Shown here piece after piece: positions 359 to 28,189 of a stretch of 28,792 nucleotides of DNA. The stretch spans positions 1 through 28,792 of IMG/VR virus record IMGVR_UViG_2778261570_000004; one strand, given 5' to 3'. Position numbers and translations under genes: made by a program. Within the stretch, counting starts at the first letter, position 1. Every line of letters starts with the position of its first letter. This DNA comes from a virus. Lineage: Duplodnaviria; Heunggongvirae; Uroviricota; Caudoviricetes. The notes under the pieces are model-generated. The model searched no databases and was not told where the DNA came from. It saw only the letters and a program-made list of their open reading frames with translations.

Positions 359-654
359 GCAAAAAATATCATGTGAACCTGGCGTTTGCCGATGACGCCG
401 GGAGGACGCGGAGCATTACGCTCAACACCGCCCGCAAGGTGGTAACAGCGCCTTTAATCCGGGAAGCCCTCAGGGAGCTGGAAATGGGGGAGAACTCGAC
501 CCTTTTGTCGGTTAGTTGGTTAGGGAAAATGTCAGAGAAGGAATACGTAGACGGAGTTACTCCAATGACAGCCATGAGGCTGCTTTCATTGCTGCAATGG
601 GCTATCGTACCGGTATGCATCGTGTATTTTATCTACCAGGCAATGACACAATAA
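355..654 (+). CDS. small protein with C-terminal hydrophobic anchor (about 99 aa; track ORF 340..654 in same frame)
   Basis: Preferred TTG at 355 preceded by GGGAG; C-terminal LLSLLQWAIVPVCIVYFIY segment; followed by intrinsic terminator. Confidence 0.4.
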   Translation: MSKKYHVNLAFADDAGRTRSITLNTARKVVTAPLIREALRELEMGENSTLLSVSWLGKMSEKEYVDGVTPMTAMRLLSLLQWAIVPVCIVYFIYQAMTQ

Positions 655-660
655 CCGCTC

Positions 661-690
661 AAAAACCCGCCGATTAGCGGGTTTTTTGTT
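661..690 (+). terminator. rho-independent terminator
   Basis: CCCGC-cgatta-GCGGG stem-loop followed by TTTTTT. Confidence 0.6.
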
Positions 691-726
691 TATCACATCT
701 TTCGATCTTGTTCTCATACTAATAAA

Positions 727-747
727 ATATGTTAGAAAACTAATTTT
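727..747. promoter_or_regulatory. operator-like motif copy 1 (ATATGTTAGAAAACTAATTTT) overlapping promoter-like AT-rich region
   Basis: Member of a motif family recurring at least 9 times in the window; sits about 20 bp upstream of the 757 ORF. Confidence 0.5.
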
Positions 748-756
748 GCAAAAACA

Positions 757-1977
757 ATGGGAACTGCAATGAGTCAACAAACTGATACTTCTAATCTGGA
801 AATCATCTCAGCCGCGATTGAAACGCTGCGGACACAGATCGCCCTTATTCAAAAGCGGAATCCGGGGGATGACCTGTCCAGACGGTTACATGAGAGCGTC
901 ATTGCCACGACTGATAACCTGGTCGCGGAGATCAACCAGCTACTTGAGGAAGGGACGGTTGATTACAACAAGCTGGTGGATCAGTTTGAGGAATATCAAC
1001 AAGCTGTTAATGATGGCTTGCTCCGTTTTTCACGAGTCACAGGCGTATCAGCGACAGTTGAAAGTCTTGGCGATGCTGTTAATCAATTTGCCGCGAGTAT
1101 GCGTAGTGAGATCGGCAATCTGGAAGCGCGTCTTGAACAGGCAAACACACTGCGCAAATCCGCAGAAGCCGATTTGAGTCGTTACAAAAAAGACTATCCA
1201 GCCAGCCTGTCAAAACGACTGGATGTTGCGGAGAAGGATAACCGTGCGCTGAAAAGAGAGCGTCGGGAACTAAAAGAGCGTTTAACAGAGCTGAATCAGC
1301 AGTGCATTAAGTATCAAGGCGAAGGTGTCACACTGCGTAAAAAGTTAGCAGCAGCGCAGAACATTATTGAAACGCTGAAACGAGAGTGTTCACAGCTTGG
1401 TCATGATCTGAACCGCGCTTGTGGTATGGGACAAAGGCCAGAGACATTCCCGCTCATGTATGACGGGGTGGATGCTATTGCCTATATCCATGAGTACCCG
1501 CATGGTCTGGTTGCGGAGACTGGTCAGCGTGGTGAAGCTCTGTTGACGGCTAATTACCATCAACAAATTAGAACCAACCGCCTGCTGACGATGGATGTGA
1601 TCCCATCAGTATGGGGAACGCCGCTTTACTATCGCCTGCCCGGCTTCGAAACGGACTGGAATACCGATATAGACGAATGCCTGGCAGATAAAATTATGGC
1701 GTACCTGGAGACTGATTTCCCGCGCCTGCATCGCCGGATTATGGACTCTAAGGATGCGCCGATCGATGAATTGAAAATGCGCCCAGAGACGTTGGAAGCT
1801 ATCAAACAGACTGCGTTTGATACCGTATTCAGCGTGGCCTGTATCCCAAGTAGTTTTCATGAAAGCATCCCCTTTATGCAGGGCGACCGTCGTCAAGAAA
1901 TTATTGATGCCTGCCGGGTGTGGGCTAACGAATGGGACAAGAAGAATGGGGGCGTAGAAGATCTTTATGGGAAATAA
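757..1977 (+). CDS. coiled-coil protein of unknown function (406 aa; start may be ATG at 769)
   Basis: Long ORF; N-terminal half heptad-rich with charged residues, C-terminal globular region; bracketed by operator-like motifs. Confidence 0.6.
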   Translation: MGTAMSQQTDTSNLEIISAAIETLRTQIALIQKRNPGDDLSRRLHESVIATTDNLVAEINQLLEEGTVDYNKLVDQFEEYQQAVNDGLLRFSRVTGVSATVESLGDAVNQFAASMRSEIGNLEARLEQANTLRKSAEADLSRYKKDYPASLSKRLDVAEKDNRALKRERRELKERLTELNQQCIKYQGEGVTLRKKLAAAQNIIETLKRECSQLGHDLNRACGMGQRPETFPLMYDGVDAIAYIHEYPHGLVAETGQRGEALLTANYHQQIRTNRLLTMDVIPSVWGTPLYYRLPGFETDWNTDIDECLADKIMAYLETDFPRLHRRIMDSKDAPIDELKMRPETLEAIKQTAFDTVFSVACIPSSFHESIPFMQGDRRQEIIDACRVWANEWDKKNGGVEDLYGK

Positions 1978-1996
1978 TATGTTAGAAATCTAATTT
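1977..1996. promoter_or_regulatory. operator-like motif copy 2 (ATATGTTAGAAATCTAATTT)
   Basis: Same motif family, immediately after the stop of the 757..1977 ORF. Confidence 0.45.
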
Positions 1997-2132
1997 CATT
2001 AAAAGAACATATTGATTGTGAGAGTAACTTAACTTAGAATTTTCCTTGCTGGTGGAGCGTTGCCACATTTCGCTTGCTGGGCTTGATAGTCACTTATTGG
2101 TTGTTGTTCGCCCACCAGCAAATAACAAATTA

Positions 2133-2150
2133 AAGTGTTAGAAAATTACA
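2133..2150. promoter_or_regulatory. operator-like motif copy 3 (AAGTGTTAGAAAATTACA)
   Basis: Same motif core GTTAGAAAA. Confidence 0.4.
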
Positions 2151-2634
2151 TGCATACAGGGACTCGCTTTGGCACCGAGCAAGCCAAAGTTCAGCAGGTT
2201 TAGTGCGTAAAGTGGTTTCAGAGAGAGCACTTTACGGAGTAAACAACAAGACATGTTGAGCCACGGAAGGTCTTTTTAAGATGTTCATTGATGATGGTCC
2301 GGCAGAGAGTAACGGGACTCGCCGCATCGAATCATCATCAATGCACATCCTCAACATTAAGGAGGCATAGGGATTTTTTTGTGGCGATTACCTTTTGCCC
2401 TAAGTCTCCTTAATGTTGCGGTAATGCACCTATGCGGATGCGGCCTTGCATTGTGTCTTGAAAGAATGGGGTAAGGCCGGGGATATCCCCAGGGGGAGGC
2501 ACCCCCGCTGCAACGAACAGCCACAGACGGCAGTCGAGTGATGGAAACGTGCAAAGACTTTAAACCTCGTTACGGCTGGCGTGGCAAACGCGACAACCGA
2601 GACAGAGCGGTGACGGGCGGAGAGAGTGCCGCAT

Positions 2635-2756
2635 CAAGAAAGAAGCCGACTTGTGATCCCTTTCTGCGGGCATTTGAAAGTGAATCCAGCTCAGGCAGTC
2701 GGCTTCTTTCTTGTGTGAGATGTAGCGTATTTGCCCATCTTCGGGTGGGCTTTTTT
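2635..2756 (+). ncRNA. candidate structured small RNA: 17-bp perfect inverted repeat hairpin followed by intrinsic terminator
   Basis: CAAGAAAGAAGCCGACT (2635-2651) pairs perfectly with AGTCGGCTTCTTTCTTG (2697-2713); GCCCA-loop-TGGGC plus T6 at 2733-2756; no credible CDS. Confidence 0.35.
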
Positions 2757-2930
2757 AGGGTTTTCGTCATGGTTAGCGACTTTGCGGCGGTTTAGAACCC
2801 GACCATTAAAGTAAATGCAAACGATGATCTGATGATGGTAGCGGCCTAAGAAGCCTGACGCCACGGGGTATGAGTCGTCCCCCGTCAAAAAATCGACCGC
2901 AGAGTGTCCCCGTCTGTGTATTAGGGAACG

Positions 2931-3026
2931 GGGAGGCATAACAGGCAAGGGCGCTGGTGTGATTAACCAGATGAATGAGAAGGGTCAGGTCTTTCTGGTC
3001 AGCGCCCTTACCTGTTACGTCCCTCC
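2931..3026. repeat. long imperfect hairpin, module copy 1 (ACAGGCAAGGGCGCTG / CAGCGCCCTTACCTGTT)
   Basis: About 26-bp stem with one G-U position; shares ACAGG-AAGGG / CCCTTACC-GTTG arms with copies at 3373, 3583 and 4993. Confidence 0.45.
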
Positions 3027-3216
3027 CGCGTAACAGCCATTGATTAATGGCTTTCTGGGATAACATCCTACTACGGGTATATCCCGTCATGCTGAAGGCG
3101 CTAATCACGCTGGAAGCCAGGGTTGTGCATCCCCTGTTACCGAATTGCAGCCAGGGCGCGGTGCGCCGAAAAGCATACGGAGGTGGAAGCCCTCGCCGGA
3201 GACGTACCCGGCAAGT

Positions 3217-3292
3217 GATGGTGTAGCTCAGCGGTTAGAGCGGTTGACTGTTAATCAACGGGTCGATGGTTCAAATCCATCCACCATCGCCA
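3217..3292 (+). tRNA. tRNA-Asn (anticodon GTT)
   Basis: Manual cloverleaf: acceptor GATGGTG/CACCATC, D-arm GCTC..GAGC, anticodon loop CTGTTAA, T-arm GATGG-TTCAAAT-CCATC, encoded CCA. Confidence 0.85.
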
Positions 3293-3294
3293 AT

Positions 3295-3370
3295 GCCGGT
3301 TTAGCTCAGTTGGTAGAGCGCCTGCCTTGTAAGCAGGATGTCAGCGGTTCGAGTCCGTTAATCGGCACCA
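3295..3370 (+). tRNA. tRNA-Thr (anticodon TGT)
   Basis: Manual cloverleaf: acceptor GCCGGTT/AATCGGC (one G-U), anticodon stem CCTGC/GCAGG with loop CTTGTAA, T-loop TTCGAGT, encoded CCA. Confidence 0.85.
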
Positions 3371-3372
3371 GC

Positions 3373-3460
3373 ACAACAGGTAAGGGTATTTTGCGACGTC
3401 GGAGATCGCCGAGCTTGGCAGAGGGTTCGAATCCCTACGAAGTACCCTTACCGTTGTGAT
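3373..3460. repeat. hairpin module copy 2, containing a T-arm-like GGTTCGAATCC (tRNA-like remnant)
   Basis: Arms ACAACAGGTAAGGG / CCCTTACCGTTGTG; internal AGGGTTCGAATCCCT; does not fold as a canonical 76-nt tRNA. Confidence 0.4.
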
Positions 3461-3582
3461 GAATGCGCAGGCTGATGCGCGAAAGACATTGCAGCTATTG
3501 CGGAAAAGAGCTGTTCGGCGGGGCAATTAAACGCCCGTGAGAGTCTGAAATAACCGCAAGCCGGAGATCAGCACCGGTCATC

Positions 3583-3657
3583 ACAACACAACAGGTAAGG
3601 GCATTCTCCCTTATGGGGCTTGGCTTAAATGCATCGAGTGCTCTTACCGTTGTGATG
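3583..3657. repeat. hairpin module copy 3
   Basis: CATCACAACACAACAGGTAAGGG ... CTCTTACCGTTGTGATG. Confidence 0.4.
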
Positions 3658-4018
3658 AAGTGCAGCTCTTTGAAGCAACCAGAAGATAAGCATCTGGCTT
3701 CACAACATAAACCGCAGGAACGACCAATAAACGGTAGTCCGTATGGAGAACACCCCGTTGAGGAAGAGGCCTGGCCGGAACCGTAACCGGCACTATAACG
3801 TTGAGAACACTGGCGTAACGGGTTCATATCCCAATCTACAGGTCCACCAGGAATGCTCTTTCCGTTGCGGTGAATGCGGCTAAGCGCACGCGGAACAGTT
3901 AAAACAATCCTCCTTAATGGTTAAACATTCCGACGTTAATTGTTAACTGGTTAACGTCACCGGGAGGCACTCGGCACCGCAATCTAATAAATATGTCACT
4001 TTTATTGAGGGATAACCA

Positions 4019-4453
4019 ATGTTCGGTAAATTGTTCGGCAAGAAAGTCGCTTCTGCAAAAGTAGAGCTGAAAAAAGTTGAGAATCGCGATCTGATGGAGG
4101 CCATCATCGGTGGCTGTTTGTTGGTGTCTGCCGCTGATGGTGAAATCGAAAAAGAAGAAACAGCGAAACTTGATCAGCTTGTCCGCTCTAATCCGCGTCT
4201 TAGTCATTTTGGTAACGAAATTACTGCAACAATTACCCGCTTTACCGAGCAACTGGAAGCTGGCTTCCGTGTTGGTCGCATGAATATCCTTCGCGAAATT
4301 GAAGATATCAAAAACGATCCAAAAGAAGCGGAAGAAGTATTCGTTAACATGCTGACAATTGCAGAAGCGGACGGTGAAATCGAGCCAGCAGAACACAAAG
4401 TACTGGAAGAAGTAGGCCGTCGTTTAGGTCTTCGTGTGGAAGATTATCTGTAA
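4019..4453 (+). CDS. TerB-like protein (tellurite-resistance TerB family; resembles P1 TciA)
   Basis: Repeated ADGEIE...E motif (SAADGEIEKEE, AEADGEIEPAEH) typical of TerB; SD GAGGGA before ATG. Confidence 0.65.
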   Translation: MFGKLFGKKVASAKVELKKVENRDLMEAIIGGCLLVSAADGEIEKEETAKLDQLVRSNPRLSHFGNEITATITRFTEQLEAGFRVGRMNILREIEDIKNDPKEAEEVFVNMLTIAEADGEIEPAEHKVLEEVGRRLGLRVEDYL

Positions 4454-9671: not shown

Positions 9672-10709
9672 TTACCAGAGTTTAGCGGCGTGCTGTGTTT
9701 GGGAGAAAGTGAACCCGTAACGTTCTTCTATGGTTTTACCGTATCTTTTCCGCGCGTCTGTCAGTTTTATGCCTGTCAGGTCATCTCCGGATGTCATCAT
9801 TACGTCTAACAAATCCAGATCCATTTTATTCAGTCTCGCCATCGCTTCGCGTGCTGTCTGTATTTTACGCTCAATGATATGGCGAATAGCCGGATCGGCT
9901 TCCTCAAGCATTTTGGCTGATTTGTTCTTTAAGCTCTCATTGCGGATGTCGATGTTTCGCAAGATGTATGACTTCGCAACATAGCTTGGTTGGTGTTTCT
10001 CCAGATCGCGAACGCGATAGAGACTAAAGTCACCAAGCAGGCCGCAAGGTATCGACTCAACCCCAGAATAAATAGTAATGCTGCGACGTTCGCCGACATT
10101 ATTAACAACGGGCACTGTGGTGTTCGGAAGTTTTGCGAACACTAAGGCTCCGTGTGCGCCTACCCTGAATCGTGACAGAGCATTGCTGCCTTCAATGTTT
10201 GTTGTAAGCACTACATCTGTGTATCCATCTTTGCGCGCCCGGTAAACTTCCCCTTCAGGTTCTGATGCGAAAAAACGGCGCTCTTCTTCAAGTGCACCAA
10301 CAATCTGCGAAAATATCTTGTTTTTCAGGCTTTTCTTTATAATTGCATCATATTTTTTGAGCAGATTTTCGCGCGTAAATGAGCGGGTGGTGGTCGCGCT
10401 TTGCACAACAATATGCGTGCTTTGATTTGTGTCCTCGATAATGAATGGGATCGGAGAATATACAGACTCAACAATGTTAGACGCTTTGCCGTCAGCGTTA
10501 CGGCACAAGTCAACAAAGGCTTTCCATTCTGTGAGGCACTTTTCAGCTTCTTCTAGCACATTCTGATCATGTGTTAGTGCAACATGGCGGAATTCCTCGC
10601 CGGAATAACTGGTATCATGGAAAACAGAGTTTGCGACCACCAGCTCTTTCCACCGTTCAGCGGTTTGCAGGAACCGTTTGTACTCTTTCTCGATCGACTT
10701 CTTACTCAT
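9672..10709 (-). CDS. hypothetical protein (345 aa) at the position occupied by the c1 repressor in P1; candidate master repressor
   Basis: Long ORF convergent with terminase, divergent from recombinase; operator-like motif 15-35 bp upstream of its start; no motif recognised by eye. Confidence 0.55.
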   Translation of the reverse strand: MSKKSIEKEYKRFLQTAERWKELVVANSVFHDTSYSGEEFRHVALTHDQNVLEEAEKCLTEWKAFVDLCRNADGKASNIVESVYSPIPFIIEDTNQSTHIVVQSATTTRSFTRENLLKKYDAIIKKSLKNKIFSQIVGALEEERRFFASEPEGEVYRARKDGYTDVVLTTNIEGSNALSRFRVGAHGALVFAKLPNTTVPVVNNVGERRSITIYSGVESIPCGLLGDFSLYRVRDLEKHQPSYVAKSYILRNIDIRNESLKNKSAKMLEEADPAIRHIIERKIQTAREAMARLNKMDLDLLDVMMTSGDDLTGIKLTDARKRYGKTIEERYGFTFSQTQHAAKLW

Positions 10710-27877: not shown

Positions 27878-27982
27878 AATACTGACTGTTGCGCCATGGC
27901 ATTATCGTGGGGTATATTTCTACGGCACCTTAGAAAAACGGGTGCCGGGATTGGAACCCCGGATAATGTCAAAGGCGACACA

Positions 27983-28004
27983 GACGCCGAAAGCGTCTTT
28001 TTTT
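27983..28004 (+). terminator. rho-independent terminator (GACGC-cgaaa-GCGTC plus T7)
   Basis: Perfect 5-bp stem and run of seven T. Confidence 0.6.
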
Positions 28005-28189
28005 GTGTCATGCCATCGCACAGCCATACGTAGCGTTTAGCTCAGAGATCAATGGTAGTGCTGGCTGGGCTGCCGAAAGGCAGGCCGGTTCCCTTTGACG
28101 CCGGTAGTTCCAACCCAGTCAGTGCTACCGCCATTGAGATTGGAACCTCACGCGGTAGCTCCTTAACTTAGTCAAAGGAGGCTGCCAAT

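What the first reader, a model, noticed from the sequence alone, without database searches (positions are those of the whole stretch)
2167..2756. About 600-nt ORF-poor region packed with hairpins downstream of two operator copies
Perfect or near-perfect inverted repeats at 2167-2189, 2206-2236, 2286-2343, 2353-2417 (18 of 20 matches) and 2635-2713 (17-bp perfect stem), ending in an intrinsic terminator at 2733-2756. The only ORF (2538-2795) would read through the hairpin and terminator and lacks an SD. This looks like a regulatory or antisense RNA locus, or a structured origin-like region.
Basis: seen in the sequence. Interest (0 to 1): 0.5.

Follow-up and report, generated by a model that had tools for sequence, protein, structure and literature searches.

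The report
Repressor-controlled structured RNA of phage-plasmid
The hairpin-packed stretch is very probably an unannotated non-coding RNA of about 600-700 nt, made early by a P1-like (D6-type) plasmid-prophage of E. coli once its repressor is lifted; it sits where related phages carry the precursor of the cell-division-blocking small RNA DicF, but its own target is unknown.

Summary
All five inverted repeats and the terminator are at the stated coordinates. The stretch folds far better than shuffles (z = -6.5), whereas neighbouring coding DNA gives z of -1.2 to +0.7.

The window is a D6-lineage P1-like phage-plasmid. The region lies between pmgS and tRNA-Asn/Thr, at the place where P1 has its C1-controlled ban promoter and "dicF-like region".

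The "operator" box occurs 10 times in the window (0.9 expected), at sites that mirror P1 C1 operators. Two copies flank a conserved sigma-70 promoter.

Relatives at 71-99% identity keep the helices through compensatory changes: 8 of 28 pairs in hairpin 5, and 3-4 pairs in hairpin 4. G-U wobbles and folding energy favour the + strand. No ORF is conserved, no Rfam or Pfam family matches, and there are no origin features.

The element is modular. Its modules are exchanged with P1 and with the ydfC-dicF-dicB spacer of prophage Qin, and here they occupy the DicF slot, but DicF and its anti-ftsZ pairing are absent.

Verdict: a new, unannotated, structured early RNA that ends at an intrinsic terminator upstream of the tRNAs. 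It is probably a processed regulatory RNA or leader. Transcription and function are untested. It is not an origin and not an antisense RNA.

The parts
1979..1993 (+). Operator-like box O1 (ATGTTAGAAATCTAA), upstream of the -35 element
   Evidence: One of 10 matches to ATGTTAGAAANNTAA in the window against 0.93 expected. The other copies lie upstream of the c1-like repressor gene, lpa, ref and c4, as P1 C1 operators do. In the L004 lineage a second, inverted copy overlaps the -35 element, like P1's bivalent Op72ab (read from alignment).
2012..2040 (+). Sigma-70-type promoter TTGATT-17 nt-TAGAAT; the transcription start is inferred near 2047
   Evidence: It is the only + strand promoter-like site in 600-4100. 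The TTGATT hexamer is invariant and the -10 element is kept in all 26 relatives.
2046..2121 (+). H0: 5'-terminal stem-loop (TTGCTGGTGG...CCACCAGCAA)
   Evidence: 10-bp perfect repeat (I7). The stem is conserved while the interior varies in relatives. z = -2.8.
2135..2149 (+). Operator-like box O2 (GTGTTAGAAAATTAC), lying in the spacer of a second, weaker promoter (-35 ATAACA at about 2122)
   Evidence: In the L006 lineage the same arrangement reads TTAACA-17 nt-TATAAT, but the -10 element is poor in this window (read from alignment).
2167..2189 (+). H1: short hairpin
   Evidence: z = -2.7. It is poorly conserved in the L004 and L006 lineages.
2198..2244 (+). H2: hairpin with a CAGAGAGAG loop
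   Evidence: I4; z = -7.7. The stem is kept, with only G-C/G-U and A-U/G-U changes.
2283..2346 (+). H3: hairpin with an invariant TGATGATG/CATCATCA stem and a variable interior that differs by indels
   Evidence: z = -3.5.
2342..2428 (+). H4: about 22-bp hairpin. The 5' arm carries AAGGAGG and the 3' arm carries CUCCUUAA
   Evidence: 18 of 20 arm positions are complementary. Compensatory double changes occur at 4 pairs in my count and 3 in the tool's count. z = -6.8. The loop is inverted in L022 and L072.
2433..2512 (+). Junction domain, closed by UGCGG/CUGCA and holding three hairpins (2442-2478, 2479-2490, 2492-2506). This is the most conserved part of the element
   Evidence: About 97% identical even in relatives that are 71-73% identical elsewhere. 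The closing pair changes between G-U and G-C. In E. fergusonii plasmids (L010/L056) the GGCCUU/AAGGCC stem is replaced by GGCUCA/UGGGCC (read from sequence).
2516..2634 (+). Module G, ending in a hairpin with a GGAGAGA-type loop
   Evidence: Absent from the L006/L009/L010/L056 relatives. Present at about 82% identity in a Pantoea plasmid and in viral contigs L078 and L081. Two covarying pairs. Not thermodynamically special (z = -0.4).
2635..2713 (+). H5: 79-nt hairpin with a 17-bp perfect outer stem, an inner stem and a conserved apical loop
   Evidence: 8 of 28 pairs show compensatory double changes and 99% of cells are paired, against 39-48% when partners are slid. z = -4.4.
2733..2756 (+). 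Intrinsic terminator (7-bp G+C-rich stem, UUCG loop, U6)
   Evidence: -12.5 kcal/mol, z = -3.1. It is conserved in D6, the L004 and L006 lineages and P1. Homology with P1 starts here.

Best explanation
Window 2047-2756 (+ strand) is a non-coding, multi-helix RNA of a D6-type P1-like phage-plasmid.

Proposed mechanism:
- It is transcribed rightward from a sigma-70 promoter (2012-2040) bracketed by two copies of the element's C1-type repressor box. It would therefore be silent in the plasmid prophage and made early after induction or infection.
- Most transcripts end at the intrinsic terminator 2733-2756. The rest read on into the conserved leader, tRNA-Asn/Thr, tciAB and tRNA-Met(CAU).
- The RNA is a chain of independently folding modules: H0, H1, H2, H3, H4, a junction domain, module G and H5. 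Evolution keeps them as RNA helices and swaps them as cassettes.
- It fills the same "RNA cargo slot" of a repressor-controlled early operon that holds the "dicF-like" module in P1 and the 190-nt/53-nt DicF precursor in prophage Qin.

By analogy with DicF, I propose that RNase III cuts the long near-perfect duplexes (H3, H4, H5) and RNase E trims the products. This would release stable structured fragments. The 3' fragment (H5, a U-rich linker and the terminator) has the build of an Hfq-type small RNA that acts in trans on host or phage RNAs. At the same time the terminator meters transcription into the tRNA/tci genes.

Shown here: the anatomy, the conservation and covariation of helices, the strand, the lack of coding signal, and the mosaic homology.
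Inferred, not shown: transcription, repressor control, processing, trans action and the target.
For: - Context. The window is 94% identical to phage D6 and 99-100% identical to about 90-kb E. coli plasmids. P1 has Op72ab/Pban, then the "dicF-like region", a terminator, tRNA-Asn/Thr, tciABC, trnI and ban at the equivalent place.
- Repressor boxes. There are 10 copies against 0.93 expected. They lie upstream of the C1 homologue, lpa, ref and c4.
- Promoter and terminator. Both are on the + strand and both are conserved.
- Structure. z = -6.55.
- Covariation. H5 has 8 of 28 pairs with changes on both sides, 99% of cells paired, 0 of 500 shuffles reaching the observed score, and slid controls at 48% or less. 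H4 has 3-4 compensatory pairs. The H3-H4-junction block has 65 consensus pairs, most of them intact in all 20 distinct sequences.
- Strand. There are 128 G-U cells against 4 A-C cells. The consensus fold is -80.7 kcal/mol on the + strand against -64.9 on the minus strand, and mean MFE is -100 against -80.
- Not coding. ORF 2538-2795 spans a module that is missing in four relatives. There are no Pfam matches, and no CDS is annotated here in D6 or in any of the 99 RefSeq plasmids.
- Mosaic homology. Qin's ydfC-dicB spacer reads module I (92-96% identical to the L004 lineage, 78% to P1), then DicF, then an STnc100-like element that is 78% identical to window 3866-3981.
- Precedent. DicF is cut from a DicA-repressed polycistronic RNA by RNase III (190-nt species) and RNase E (53-nt species) (PMC10448788).
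Against: - There are no expression data of any kind. The transcription start, the 3' end and the processing are predictions.
- The sequences come from about four lineages linked by recombination, so the compensatory changes represent few independent events.
- The junction domain is almost invariant, so it neither supports nor contradicts its predicted fold. It may be conserved for another reason.
- H1 is not conserved, and module G is not thermodynamically special.
- The second promoter is poor in this window.
- No target can be named. There is no anti-ftsZ complementarity: 185 of 200 shuffles pair as well or better, whereas for DicF itself only 5 of 200 do.
- A structured leader could be selected merely to resist Rho or RNases.
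- The loop inversion of H4 in two relatives shows that DNA-level hairpin events also shape the region.
Confidence: 0.6

Rival explanations
1. It is a purely cis-acting leader. The structured untranslated RNA exists only to serve the downstream tRNA/tci operon. It would shield a 1.2-kb untranslated transcript from Rho and RNases, provide processing sites for the tRNA precursor, and attenuate at the terminator or help RNA polymerase read through it (put-like). It would have no trans-acting product.
For: - The terminator and the 460 nt downstream of it are shared with P1, while the upstream modules differ.
- No convincing promoter lies between the terminator and tRNA-Asn, so the tRNAs appear to depend on read-through.
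- P1 annotates ban-operon transcription from Pban through the same terminator.
- H0 sits right at the predicted 5' end, as protective 5' hairpins do.
Against: - A terminator alone would be enough for attenuation.
- P1 manages with a different, far shorter leader, so about 600 nt of covarying helices with conserved loops are not needed for tRNA expression.
- The modules move between operons that have no tRNAs (Qin dicBF; contig L081 next to a cI/cro pair).
- The terminator is strong on paper (-12.5 kcal/mol plus U6).
Confidence: 0.2
2. It is the mRNA of a small hydrophobic peptide (2379-2474, 31 aa, MWRLPFALSLLNVAVMHLCGCGLALCLERMG). Its Shine-Dalgarno sequence AAGGAGG is locked in hairpin 4, as in type I toxin mRNAs such as hok.
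For: - AAGGAGG (2359-2365) pairs with CUCCUUAA in H4.
- Three different loop variants keep an in-frame TTG or GTG start. In the L004 lineage the start lies 7 nt from the SD (read).
- The two point substitutions inside the ORF core are synonymous.
- Highly folded, SD-sequestering mRNAs are typical of type I toxins (general knowledge).
Against: - The frame is broken by a 1-nt deletion in L010/L056.
- A 1-nt insertion in the L005 lineage removes the stop and extends the frame.
- The N-terminal half is lost in the inverted-loop variants L022 and L072.
- SD-to-start spacing is 11-15 nt in the window, D6 and L016.
- The two synonymous changes are also the G-U/A-U and G-C/G-U changes expected for RNA pairs.
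- The region is nearly invariant at all codon positions.
- There is no Pfam hit and no antisense promoter.
Confidence: 0.08
3. It is a DNA-level element: a replication origin, a packaging or recombination site, or a set of cruciforms, rather than an RNA.
For: - It is dense in inverted repeats, which fold equally well as either strand in a single sequence.
- The H4 loop is found inverted in two relatives, so the palindrome does extrude or template-switch in DNA.
Against: - There are no DnaA boxes and no iterons, and the region is not AT-rich.
- The asymmetry of 128 G-U against 4 A-C cells, and the better + strand consensus fold, are not expected for DNA.
- The promoter and terminator bracket the region.
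- P1-type elements have their origins elsewhere (oriR/oriL; general knowledge).
Confidence: 0.04
4. It is a functional equivalent of DicF: a small RNA that blocks host cell division by pairing with the ftsZ ribosome-binding site.
For: - It occupies the DicF slot of a mosaic locus.
- P1 curators labelled the neighbouring module "dicF-like".
- The operon also carries tci genes, annotated as possible division inhibitors.
Against: - The Rfam DicF model finds nothing here or in P1, even at E up to 10.
- Duplex energy with the ftsZ start region is no better than shuffles: 185/200 and 98/200 shuffles are as good, against 5/200 for true DicF.
- P1's "dicF-like" stretch matches the sequence upstream of DicF, not DicF itself.
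Confidence: 0.05

Closest known systems
dicBF operon leader / long (190-nt) DicF precursor of cryptic prophage Qin (E. coli K-12)
   Same: - Both are untranslated RNA modules inside an operon repressed by the prophage's CI-like repressor.
- Both are followed by an STnc100-like 5' UTR and a small division- or membrane-related gene. Window 3866-3981 is 78% identical to the dicF-dicB spacer.
- The sister lineages L004 and L006 carry Qin's module I (92-96% identical) right after hairpin 5.
[quoted passage not shown]
   Different: - The 53-nt DicF itself is absent, and so is its anti-ftsZ pairing.
- Module I is absent from this window.
- Modules H0-H5 have no counterpart in Qin or in any E. coli chromosome.
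- The RNA is more than 10 times longer than DicF.
- tRNA genes follow it.
Phage P1 ban-operon leader (Op72ab/Pban, "dicF-like region", terminator, trnA, trnT)
   Same: - Same genomic slot and same downstream genes.
- Same terminator and same 460-nt tRNA leader (93.7% identical from window 2730 onward).
- A tandem promoter with repressor operators.
   Different: - P1 has only about 165-185 nt (my count from the sequence) between the promoter and the terminator, and none of the H0-H5 modules.
- The operator sequence differs: P1 ATTGCTCTAATAAATTT against ATGTTAGAAAnnTAA here.
- No ban gene follows in the D6 lineage.
ROOL and GOLLD: large ornate RNAs of phages and prophages, often next to tRNA genes
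   Same: It is a large (over 500 nt), multi-helix, non-coding RNA of unknown function, encoded by a phage immediately upstream of tRNA genes. This resemblance is from general knowledge.
   Different: - No match to either Rfam model.
- No evidence for an intricate tertiary core.
- The element is a string of exchangeable hairpins rather than one conserved fold.
- It has a narrow host range (Escherichia, Shigella, Salmonella plasmids).
RNase III-processed early leaders of coliphages (T7 early RNA sites, lambda N leader) and HK022 put RNA
   Same: These are promoter-proximal stem-loops in early phage transcripts that are cut by RNase III or act on the transcribing polymerase (general knowledge).
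   Different: No sequence similarity was tested or is known. Neither processing nor antitermination has been shown here.
Type I toxin mRNAs (hok/sok-like)
   Same: A highly folded RNA with a sequestered Shine-Dalgarno sequence and a short hydrophobic ORF.
   Different: The ORF is not conserved. There is no antisense RNA gene and no family match.

Membership tests
DicF sRNA (Rfam RF00039) | Match to the family's covariance model | tested here: not met
   No DicF hit at gathering score or at E up to 10, either in the window or in the P1 leader.
DicF sRNA (Rfam RF00039) | Complementarity to the ftsZ translation-initiation region | tested here: not met
   RNAduplex against ftsZ -40..+30: DicF scores -38.5 kcal/mol, matched or beaten by 5 of 200 shuffles. 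Window 2047-2756 is matched or beaten by 185 of 200, and 2515-2756 by 98 of 200.
DicF sRNA (Rfam RF00039) | Lies in a prophage-repressor-controlled polycistronic RNA and is released by RNase III/E, with a terminator at the 3' end | tested here: inconclusive
   Repressor boxes, a promoter and a terminator are present, and the flanks are homologous to the Qin locus. Processing cannot be tested in silico.
P1-type ban-operon leader (positional homologue) | C1-type operators over the promoter, then leader, terminator, tRNA-Asn/Thr and tci genes | tested here: met
   Gene order and terminator match. The box distribution parallels the P1 operators. Sequence homology with P1 begins only at 2730.
STnc100 / PasD family (RF02076) | Match to the covariance model | tested here: not met
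   The only hit is outside the finding, at 3866-3981: 42 bits against a gathering score of 47. Inside the finding, only the 2492-2506 hairpin (GGGGG-AGGCA-CCCCC) resembles STnc100's CCGGG-AGGCA-CCCGG hairpin (D5, read from sequence).
ROOL / GOLLD large RNAs | Match to the Rfam models | tested here: not met
   No hit, even at E up to 10.
C4-type phage antisense RNA (RF01695) | Match to the model, and a complementary target in the same operon | tested here: not met
   C4 is found at 28048-28135 (77 bits), not in this region.
Replication origin | Initiator boxes or iterons plus an AT-rich unwinding element | tested here: not met
   No DnaA-box match within 2167-2756. No direct repeats there. GC is 0.44-0.56.
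Type I toxin-antitoxin locus | Conserved small hydrophobic ORF plus an overlapping antisense RNA gene | tested here: not met
   The ORF is frameshifted or truncated in three lineages. There is no minus-strand promoter and no family hit. Translation itself was not testable.
Structured non-coding RNA (generic criteria) | Helices maintained by compensatory substitutions across relatives | tested here: met
   H5 has 8 of 28 pairs with changes on both sides, and 0 of 500 shuffles reach the observed score. H4 has 3-4 such pairs. Caveat: there are few independent lineages.
Structured non-coding RNA (generic criteria) | Detectable transcript | not testable with these tools
   No RNA-seq data are accessible. 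Papers on P1 transcriptomes that I could read do not cover this element.

The most novel reading that the evidence does not exclude
The 0.6-0.7 kb RNA is a new class of large, modular phage RNA that works in trans during early development of P1-like phage-plasmids. It might act as a decoy that displays ribosome-binding-site-like purine loops (AAGGAGG, GGAGAGA, AGAGAG) to titrate a host RNA-binding factor, a small RNA or a defence nuclease. Alternatively it might partner the adjacent tRNAs in the manner suspected for ROOL and GOLLD. On this reading, temperate coliphages share a dedicated "RNA cargo slot" in repressor-controlled early operons, into which such modules are shuffled.
Probability: 0.15. 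Interest if true: 0.7.

Novelty: new variant of a known kind. Interest (0 to 1): 0.45.

Why it matters
D6/P1-like phage-plasmids are common. This element is in 99 of 5,426 complete E. coli genomes, and also in Shigella and Salmonella. These plasmids increasingly carry resistance genes, yet about 2 kb of their early region is unannotated RNA.

If the reading is right, three things follow:
- It adds a covariation-supported, genetically tractable RNA to the short list of phage regulatory RNAs.
- It shows that P1's long-standing "dicF-like region" label refers to the DicF precursor module, not to DicF itself.
- It ties together Qin's dicBF leader, P1's ban leader, the STnc100-like 5' UTRs of dicB and tciA, and the D6 modules as one mosaic system of exchangeable RNA cassettes under prophage-repressor control.

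That gives a concrete E. coli-based system for asking what such early phage RNAs do. Candidate roles include host takeover, control of tRNA supply, and division control.

Tried and rejected
- Rfam was searched at gathering score and at E up to 10, on the window and on the sub-region. It found only tRNAs, C4, isrK and a sub-threshold STnc100 hit outside the finding.
- The genome-contig scan with an 18-mer of the core gave 14 hits in unrelated phyla, with no flanking similarity. These are chance matches.
- Three viral-contig scans with different core patterns returned the same set of about 26 D6-like contigs.
- The module G pattern added Pantoea, L078 and L081. It also gave one chance hit inside a GC-rich coding region, L079.
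- A distant BLAST against E. coli genomes found no chromosomal copy.
- Pfam on six ORFs gave nothing.
- The anti-ftsZ pairing test was negative.
- CsrA-type GGA motifs looked no denser than chance by eye. This was not computed.
- The boxA/nut-like and Cin/cix-like resemblances I looked for by eye were unconvincing.
- The P1 genome paper and the D6 genome paper are not held in the library. One literature search was wasted on an ambiguous term.
- The Salmonella Sa1423 plasmids (L003, L057) were left out of the covariation counts because they look error-rich.
- I did not build covariance models, because they could only be run on sequences already fetched.
Full report
WHAT THE WINDOW IS. The 1.1 kb around the finding is 94% identical over its full length to Escherichia phage D6. 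Phages P1, P7, SJ46 and RCS47 match only from window 2730 rightward, and that stretch is annotated in P1 as lying under a "dicF-like region". PLSDB holds 119 plasmids of about 90 kb from Escherichia, Shigella and Salmonella with the region, at identities from 82% to above 99%. The element occurs in 99 of 5,426 complete E. coli genomes. It is always on a plasmid, never on a chromosome, and nothing is annotated under it. The window is therefore a D6-lineage P1-like phage-plasmid.

The finding lies in a gap of about 1,240 nt with no annotated gene. On the left is a PmgS-like gene (757-1977). On the right are tRNA-Asn (3217) and tRNA-Thr (3295), followed by tciA (4019-4453) and tRNA-Met(CAU) (4728). 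In P1 the corresponding place reads as follows: bivalent C1 operator Op72ab over the promoters P1ban/P2ban, the "dicF-like region", tRNA-Asn, tRNA-Thr, tciABC, trnI and ban.

THE OBSERVATION. The stretch 2167-2756 folds to -232 kcal/mol, against -189 +/- 6.6 for 150 dinucleotide-preserving shuffles (z = -6.55). Three coding stretches of equal length from the same window give z of -1.2, +0.7 and -0.7. Perfect 9-mer inverted seeds number 18, against 0.19 expected. Single elements score z = -7.7 (H2), -6.8 (H4), -4.4 (H5), -3.5 (H3), -3.1 (terminator) and -2.7 (H1). The statement that 2538-2795 is the only ORF is loose, because there are many ORFs of 30-85 aa on both strands.

THE "OPERATORS" AND THE PROMOTER. 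The box ATGTTAGAAANNTAA (up to 2 mismatches) occurs 10 times in the window, against 0.93 expected, and no shuffle reaches 10. Besides 1979 and 2135, copies lie as follows:
- twice upstream of the 345-aa gene at 9672-10709(-), which D6 annotates as "prophage repressor similar to P1 C1";
- upstream of lpa (6339) and of ref (26800);
- next to the c4/isrK immunity RNAs;
- after cre;
- upstream of pmgS.

These are the kinds of places where P1 has C1 operators; for the ban operon this is shown in the P1 record, for the others it is my recollection of the P1 literature. I therefore read the box as the operator of the D6-type C1 repressor. This is an inference, and the sequence differs from P1's ATTGCTCTAATAAATTT.

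The only + strand sigma-70-like site between 600 and 4100 is TTGATT-17-TAGAAT at 2012-2040. Its -35 element is invariant and its -10 element is kept in all 26 aligned relatives. In the L004 lineage a second, inverted box overlaps the -35 element, recalling P1's bivalent Op72ab. Box 2135-2149 sits in the 17-nt spacer of a second promoter. That promoter is canonical in the L006 lineage (TTAACA-17-TATAAT) but poor in this window (read). The predicted start near 2047 coincides with the foot of a conserved stem-loop, H0 (2046-2121).

IT IS RNA, ON THE + STRAND. I collected relatives from phages, plasmids, viral contigs and metagenomes. They fall into about four lineages: window-like, D6-like (92-95%), L004-like (about 82%), and L006/L010-like (71-73% outside the core).
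- Hairpin 5 keeps 99% of its cells paired over 14 distinct sequences. Changes on both sides occur at 8 of 28 pairs (for example G-C to C-G, A-U to U-A, U-A to C-G). No shuffle out of 500 reaches the observed covariation score. Sliding the partners by 1-3 columns drops pairing to 39-48% and compensatory pairs to 0-1.
- Hairpin 4 shows compensatory changes at 3-4 pairs, including A-U to G-C and G-C to A-U.
- The H3-H4-junction block has 65 consensus pairs, almost all kept.
- In the E. fergusonii plasmids the junction stem GGCCUU/AAGGCC is replaced by GGCUCA/UGGGCC (read).
- Many one-sided changes are G-C/G-U or A-U/G-U. G-U cells outnumber A-C cells by 128 to 4.
- When both strands are folded without prejudice, the + strand consensus is better: -80.7 against -64.9 kcal/mol, with mean MFE -100 against -80.

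This agrees with the orientation of the promoter and terminator. One caveat applies: the lineages are few and recombine, so the number of independent events is small.

IT IS NOT CODING, AND NOT AN ORIGIN.
- The 85-aa ORF spans module G, which four relatives lack altogether.
- None of six ORFs has a Pfam match.
- A 31-aa hydrophobic ORF (2379-2474) starts in the loop of hairpin 4, downstream of the sequestered AAGGAGG. It is worth a test, but three lineages disrupt it. A 1-nt deletion frameshifts it in L010/L056. A 1-nt insertion removes its stop in the L005 lineage. The inverted-loop variants lack its N-terminal half.
- No DnaA box falls within 2167-2756, there are no direct repeats there, and GC is 0.44-0.56.

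MODULAR, MOSAIC ANATOMY. Alignments A1 and A2 show cassettes with sharp borders.
- The core 2332-2514 is about 97% identical even between lineages that are otherwise 71-73% identical.
- Module G (2516-2634) is absent from the L006/L010 lineages. It recurs at about 82% identity in a Pantoea plasmid, in front of a tRNA-like element and tciA/B-sized genes. It also recurs in two viral contigs, one of them beside a cI/cro-like pair.
- The L004 and L006 lineages carry an extra 110-130 nt between hairpin 5 and the terminator. This "module I" is the P1 "dicF-like region".

Fetching the E. coli K-12 dicF locus settled what that label means. The ydfC-dicB spacer of prophage Qin reads as follows: module I (92-96% identical to L004, 78% to P1), then a short CCCCGCTGCAACG that also ends the window's junction domain (2503-2515; weak evidence, E = 0.009), then the 53-nt DicF, then an element 78% identical to window 3866-3981, which directly precedes tciA and scores just under threshold for Rfam STnc100.

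So P1's "dicF-like" stretch corresponds to the 5' part of the 190-nt DicF species, not to DicF itself. The finding occupies the DicF position in a shared architecture: repressor-controlled promoter, exchangeable RNA modules, STnc100-like 5' UTR, small gene. In Qin that operon is repressed by the CI-like DicA, and DicF is released by RNase III (190 nt) and RNase E (53 nt) (PMC10448788). STnc100 and PasD are regarded as prophage small RNAs of common origin (bioRxiv 10.64898/2026.05.13.724894).

HOW IT MOST LIKELY WORKS. I commit to the following model. On loss of C1 repression, RNA polymerase starts near 2047 and synthesises the chain of helices. Most polymerases stop at 2733-2756, and a fraction continues into the tRNA/tci genes. 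The 17-22-bp near-perfect duplexes (H3, H4, H5) are RNase III-type substrates. Cleavage and RNase E trimming would yield stable fragments, of which H5 plus linker plus terminator has the layout of an Hfq-dependent small RNA.

The transcript, its control, its processing and any trans action are inferred. Only the anatomy, the evolutionary pattern and the homologies are shown. The target is unknown. It is not ftsZ, because DicF pairs with the ftsZ start region better than all but 5 of 200 shuffles, whereas the window RNA is beaten or matched by 185 of 200.

Rivals, with my confidence in each:
- a purely cis-acting leader (0.2);
- a small toxic-peptide mRNA (0.08);
- a DicF-like anti-ftsZ RNA (0.05);
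- a DNA element (0.04).

COMPARISON AND NOVELTY. It works like, and is positionally homologous to, the P1 ban leader and the Qin dicBF leader. It is not a member of DicF, STnc100, C4, ROOL or GOLLD by their covariance models. Modules H0-H5 have no relatives outside D6-type plasmids, apart from module G. I rate it a new variant of a known kind (regulatory or leader RNAs of repressor-controlled early phage operons). It is unannotated everywhere I looked and has good but shallow comparative support. Interest is moderate, at 0.45.

Noticed in passing
window 2365-2405 (loop and inner stem of hairpin 4); L022 and L072: In two relatives (IMGVR_UViG_3300015157_000028 and OBRH01000019.1), the segment between the outer arms AACATTAAGGAG/CTCCTTAATGTT is the exact reverse complement of the usual sequence. 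L072 also has a 10-nt deletion. This is a hairpin "flip" at the DNA level. It turns two G-U pairs into A-C mismatches on the + strand.
   Followed up: partly
window 3866-3981: An STnc100-like element (Rfam 42 bits, gathering score 47) lies directly upstream of tciA. It is 78% identical to the dicF-dicB spacer of prophage Qin and also occurs in front of P1 tciA. It appears to be a shared structured 5' UTR of dicB and tciA.
   Followed up: partly
L002 (P1) 3885-3979; L082 (Qin) 463-560: P1's annotated "dicF-like region" is homologous to the roughly 100 nt upstream of the 53-nt DicF (the 5' part of the 190-nt RNase III species), not to DicF itself. The Rfam DicF model does not hit P1.
   Followed up: yes
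window 3369-3463, 3584-3659, 3852-3874: There are three copies of a hairpin unit, ACAACAGGTAAGGG...CCCTTACCGTTGTGATGAA, downstream of tRNA-Thr. A related hairpin lies at 2930-3026 (27-nt arms). The D6 record calls a "tRNA-Ser(UGA)" in this area, but ARAGORN finds none in the window. These may be tRNA remnants or processing hairpins.
   Followed up: no
window 729, 1979, 2135, 6247(-), 10724(-), 10902(-), 12125(-), 22149, 26721, 27375(-): These are ten copies of ATGTTAGAAAnnTAA (0.9 expected). They lie upstream of c1, lpa, ref, c4 and pmgS. I take them to be the operator set of the D6-type C1 repressor. The sequence differs from the P1 operator.
   Followed up: partly
window 27925-28003 and 28048-28135: Rfam finds isrK (62.7 bits) and C4 antisense RNA (77.1 bits) side by side. 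This is the immI immunity region of the element.
   Followed up: no
window 2219-2228, 2303-2310, 2617-2626; L054, L081: A purine loop motif, (C/G)AGAGAG or GGAGAGA, recurs in the loops of H2, H3 and the module G hairpin. In module G the loop is kept in Pantoea and L081 while the stem covaries. CGGAGAGA is also the ftsZ ribosome-binding-site sequence. The meaning is unknown.
   Followed up: partly
L054 (Pantoea sp. CCBC3-3-1 plasmid NZ_CP034366) 4255-4353: A tRNA-like element with a long insert (Rfam tRNA 45 bits; ARAGORN finds nothing) follows module G. After it come a terminator and tciA/B-sized genes. This suggests a distant phage-plasmid with the same operon plan.
   Followed up: no
L003, L057 (Salmonella sp. 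Sa1423 plasmids): These records carry many homopolymer indels and few annotated genes. They are probably error-rich assemblies and were left out of the covariation counts.
   Followed up: no
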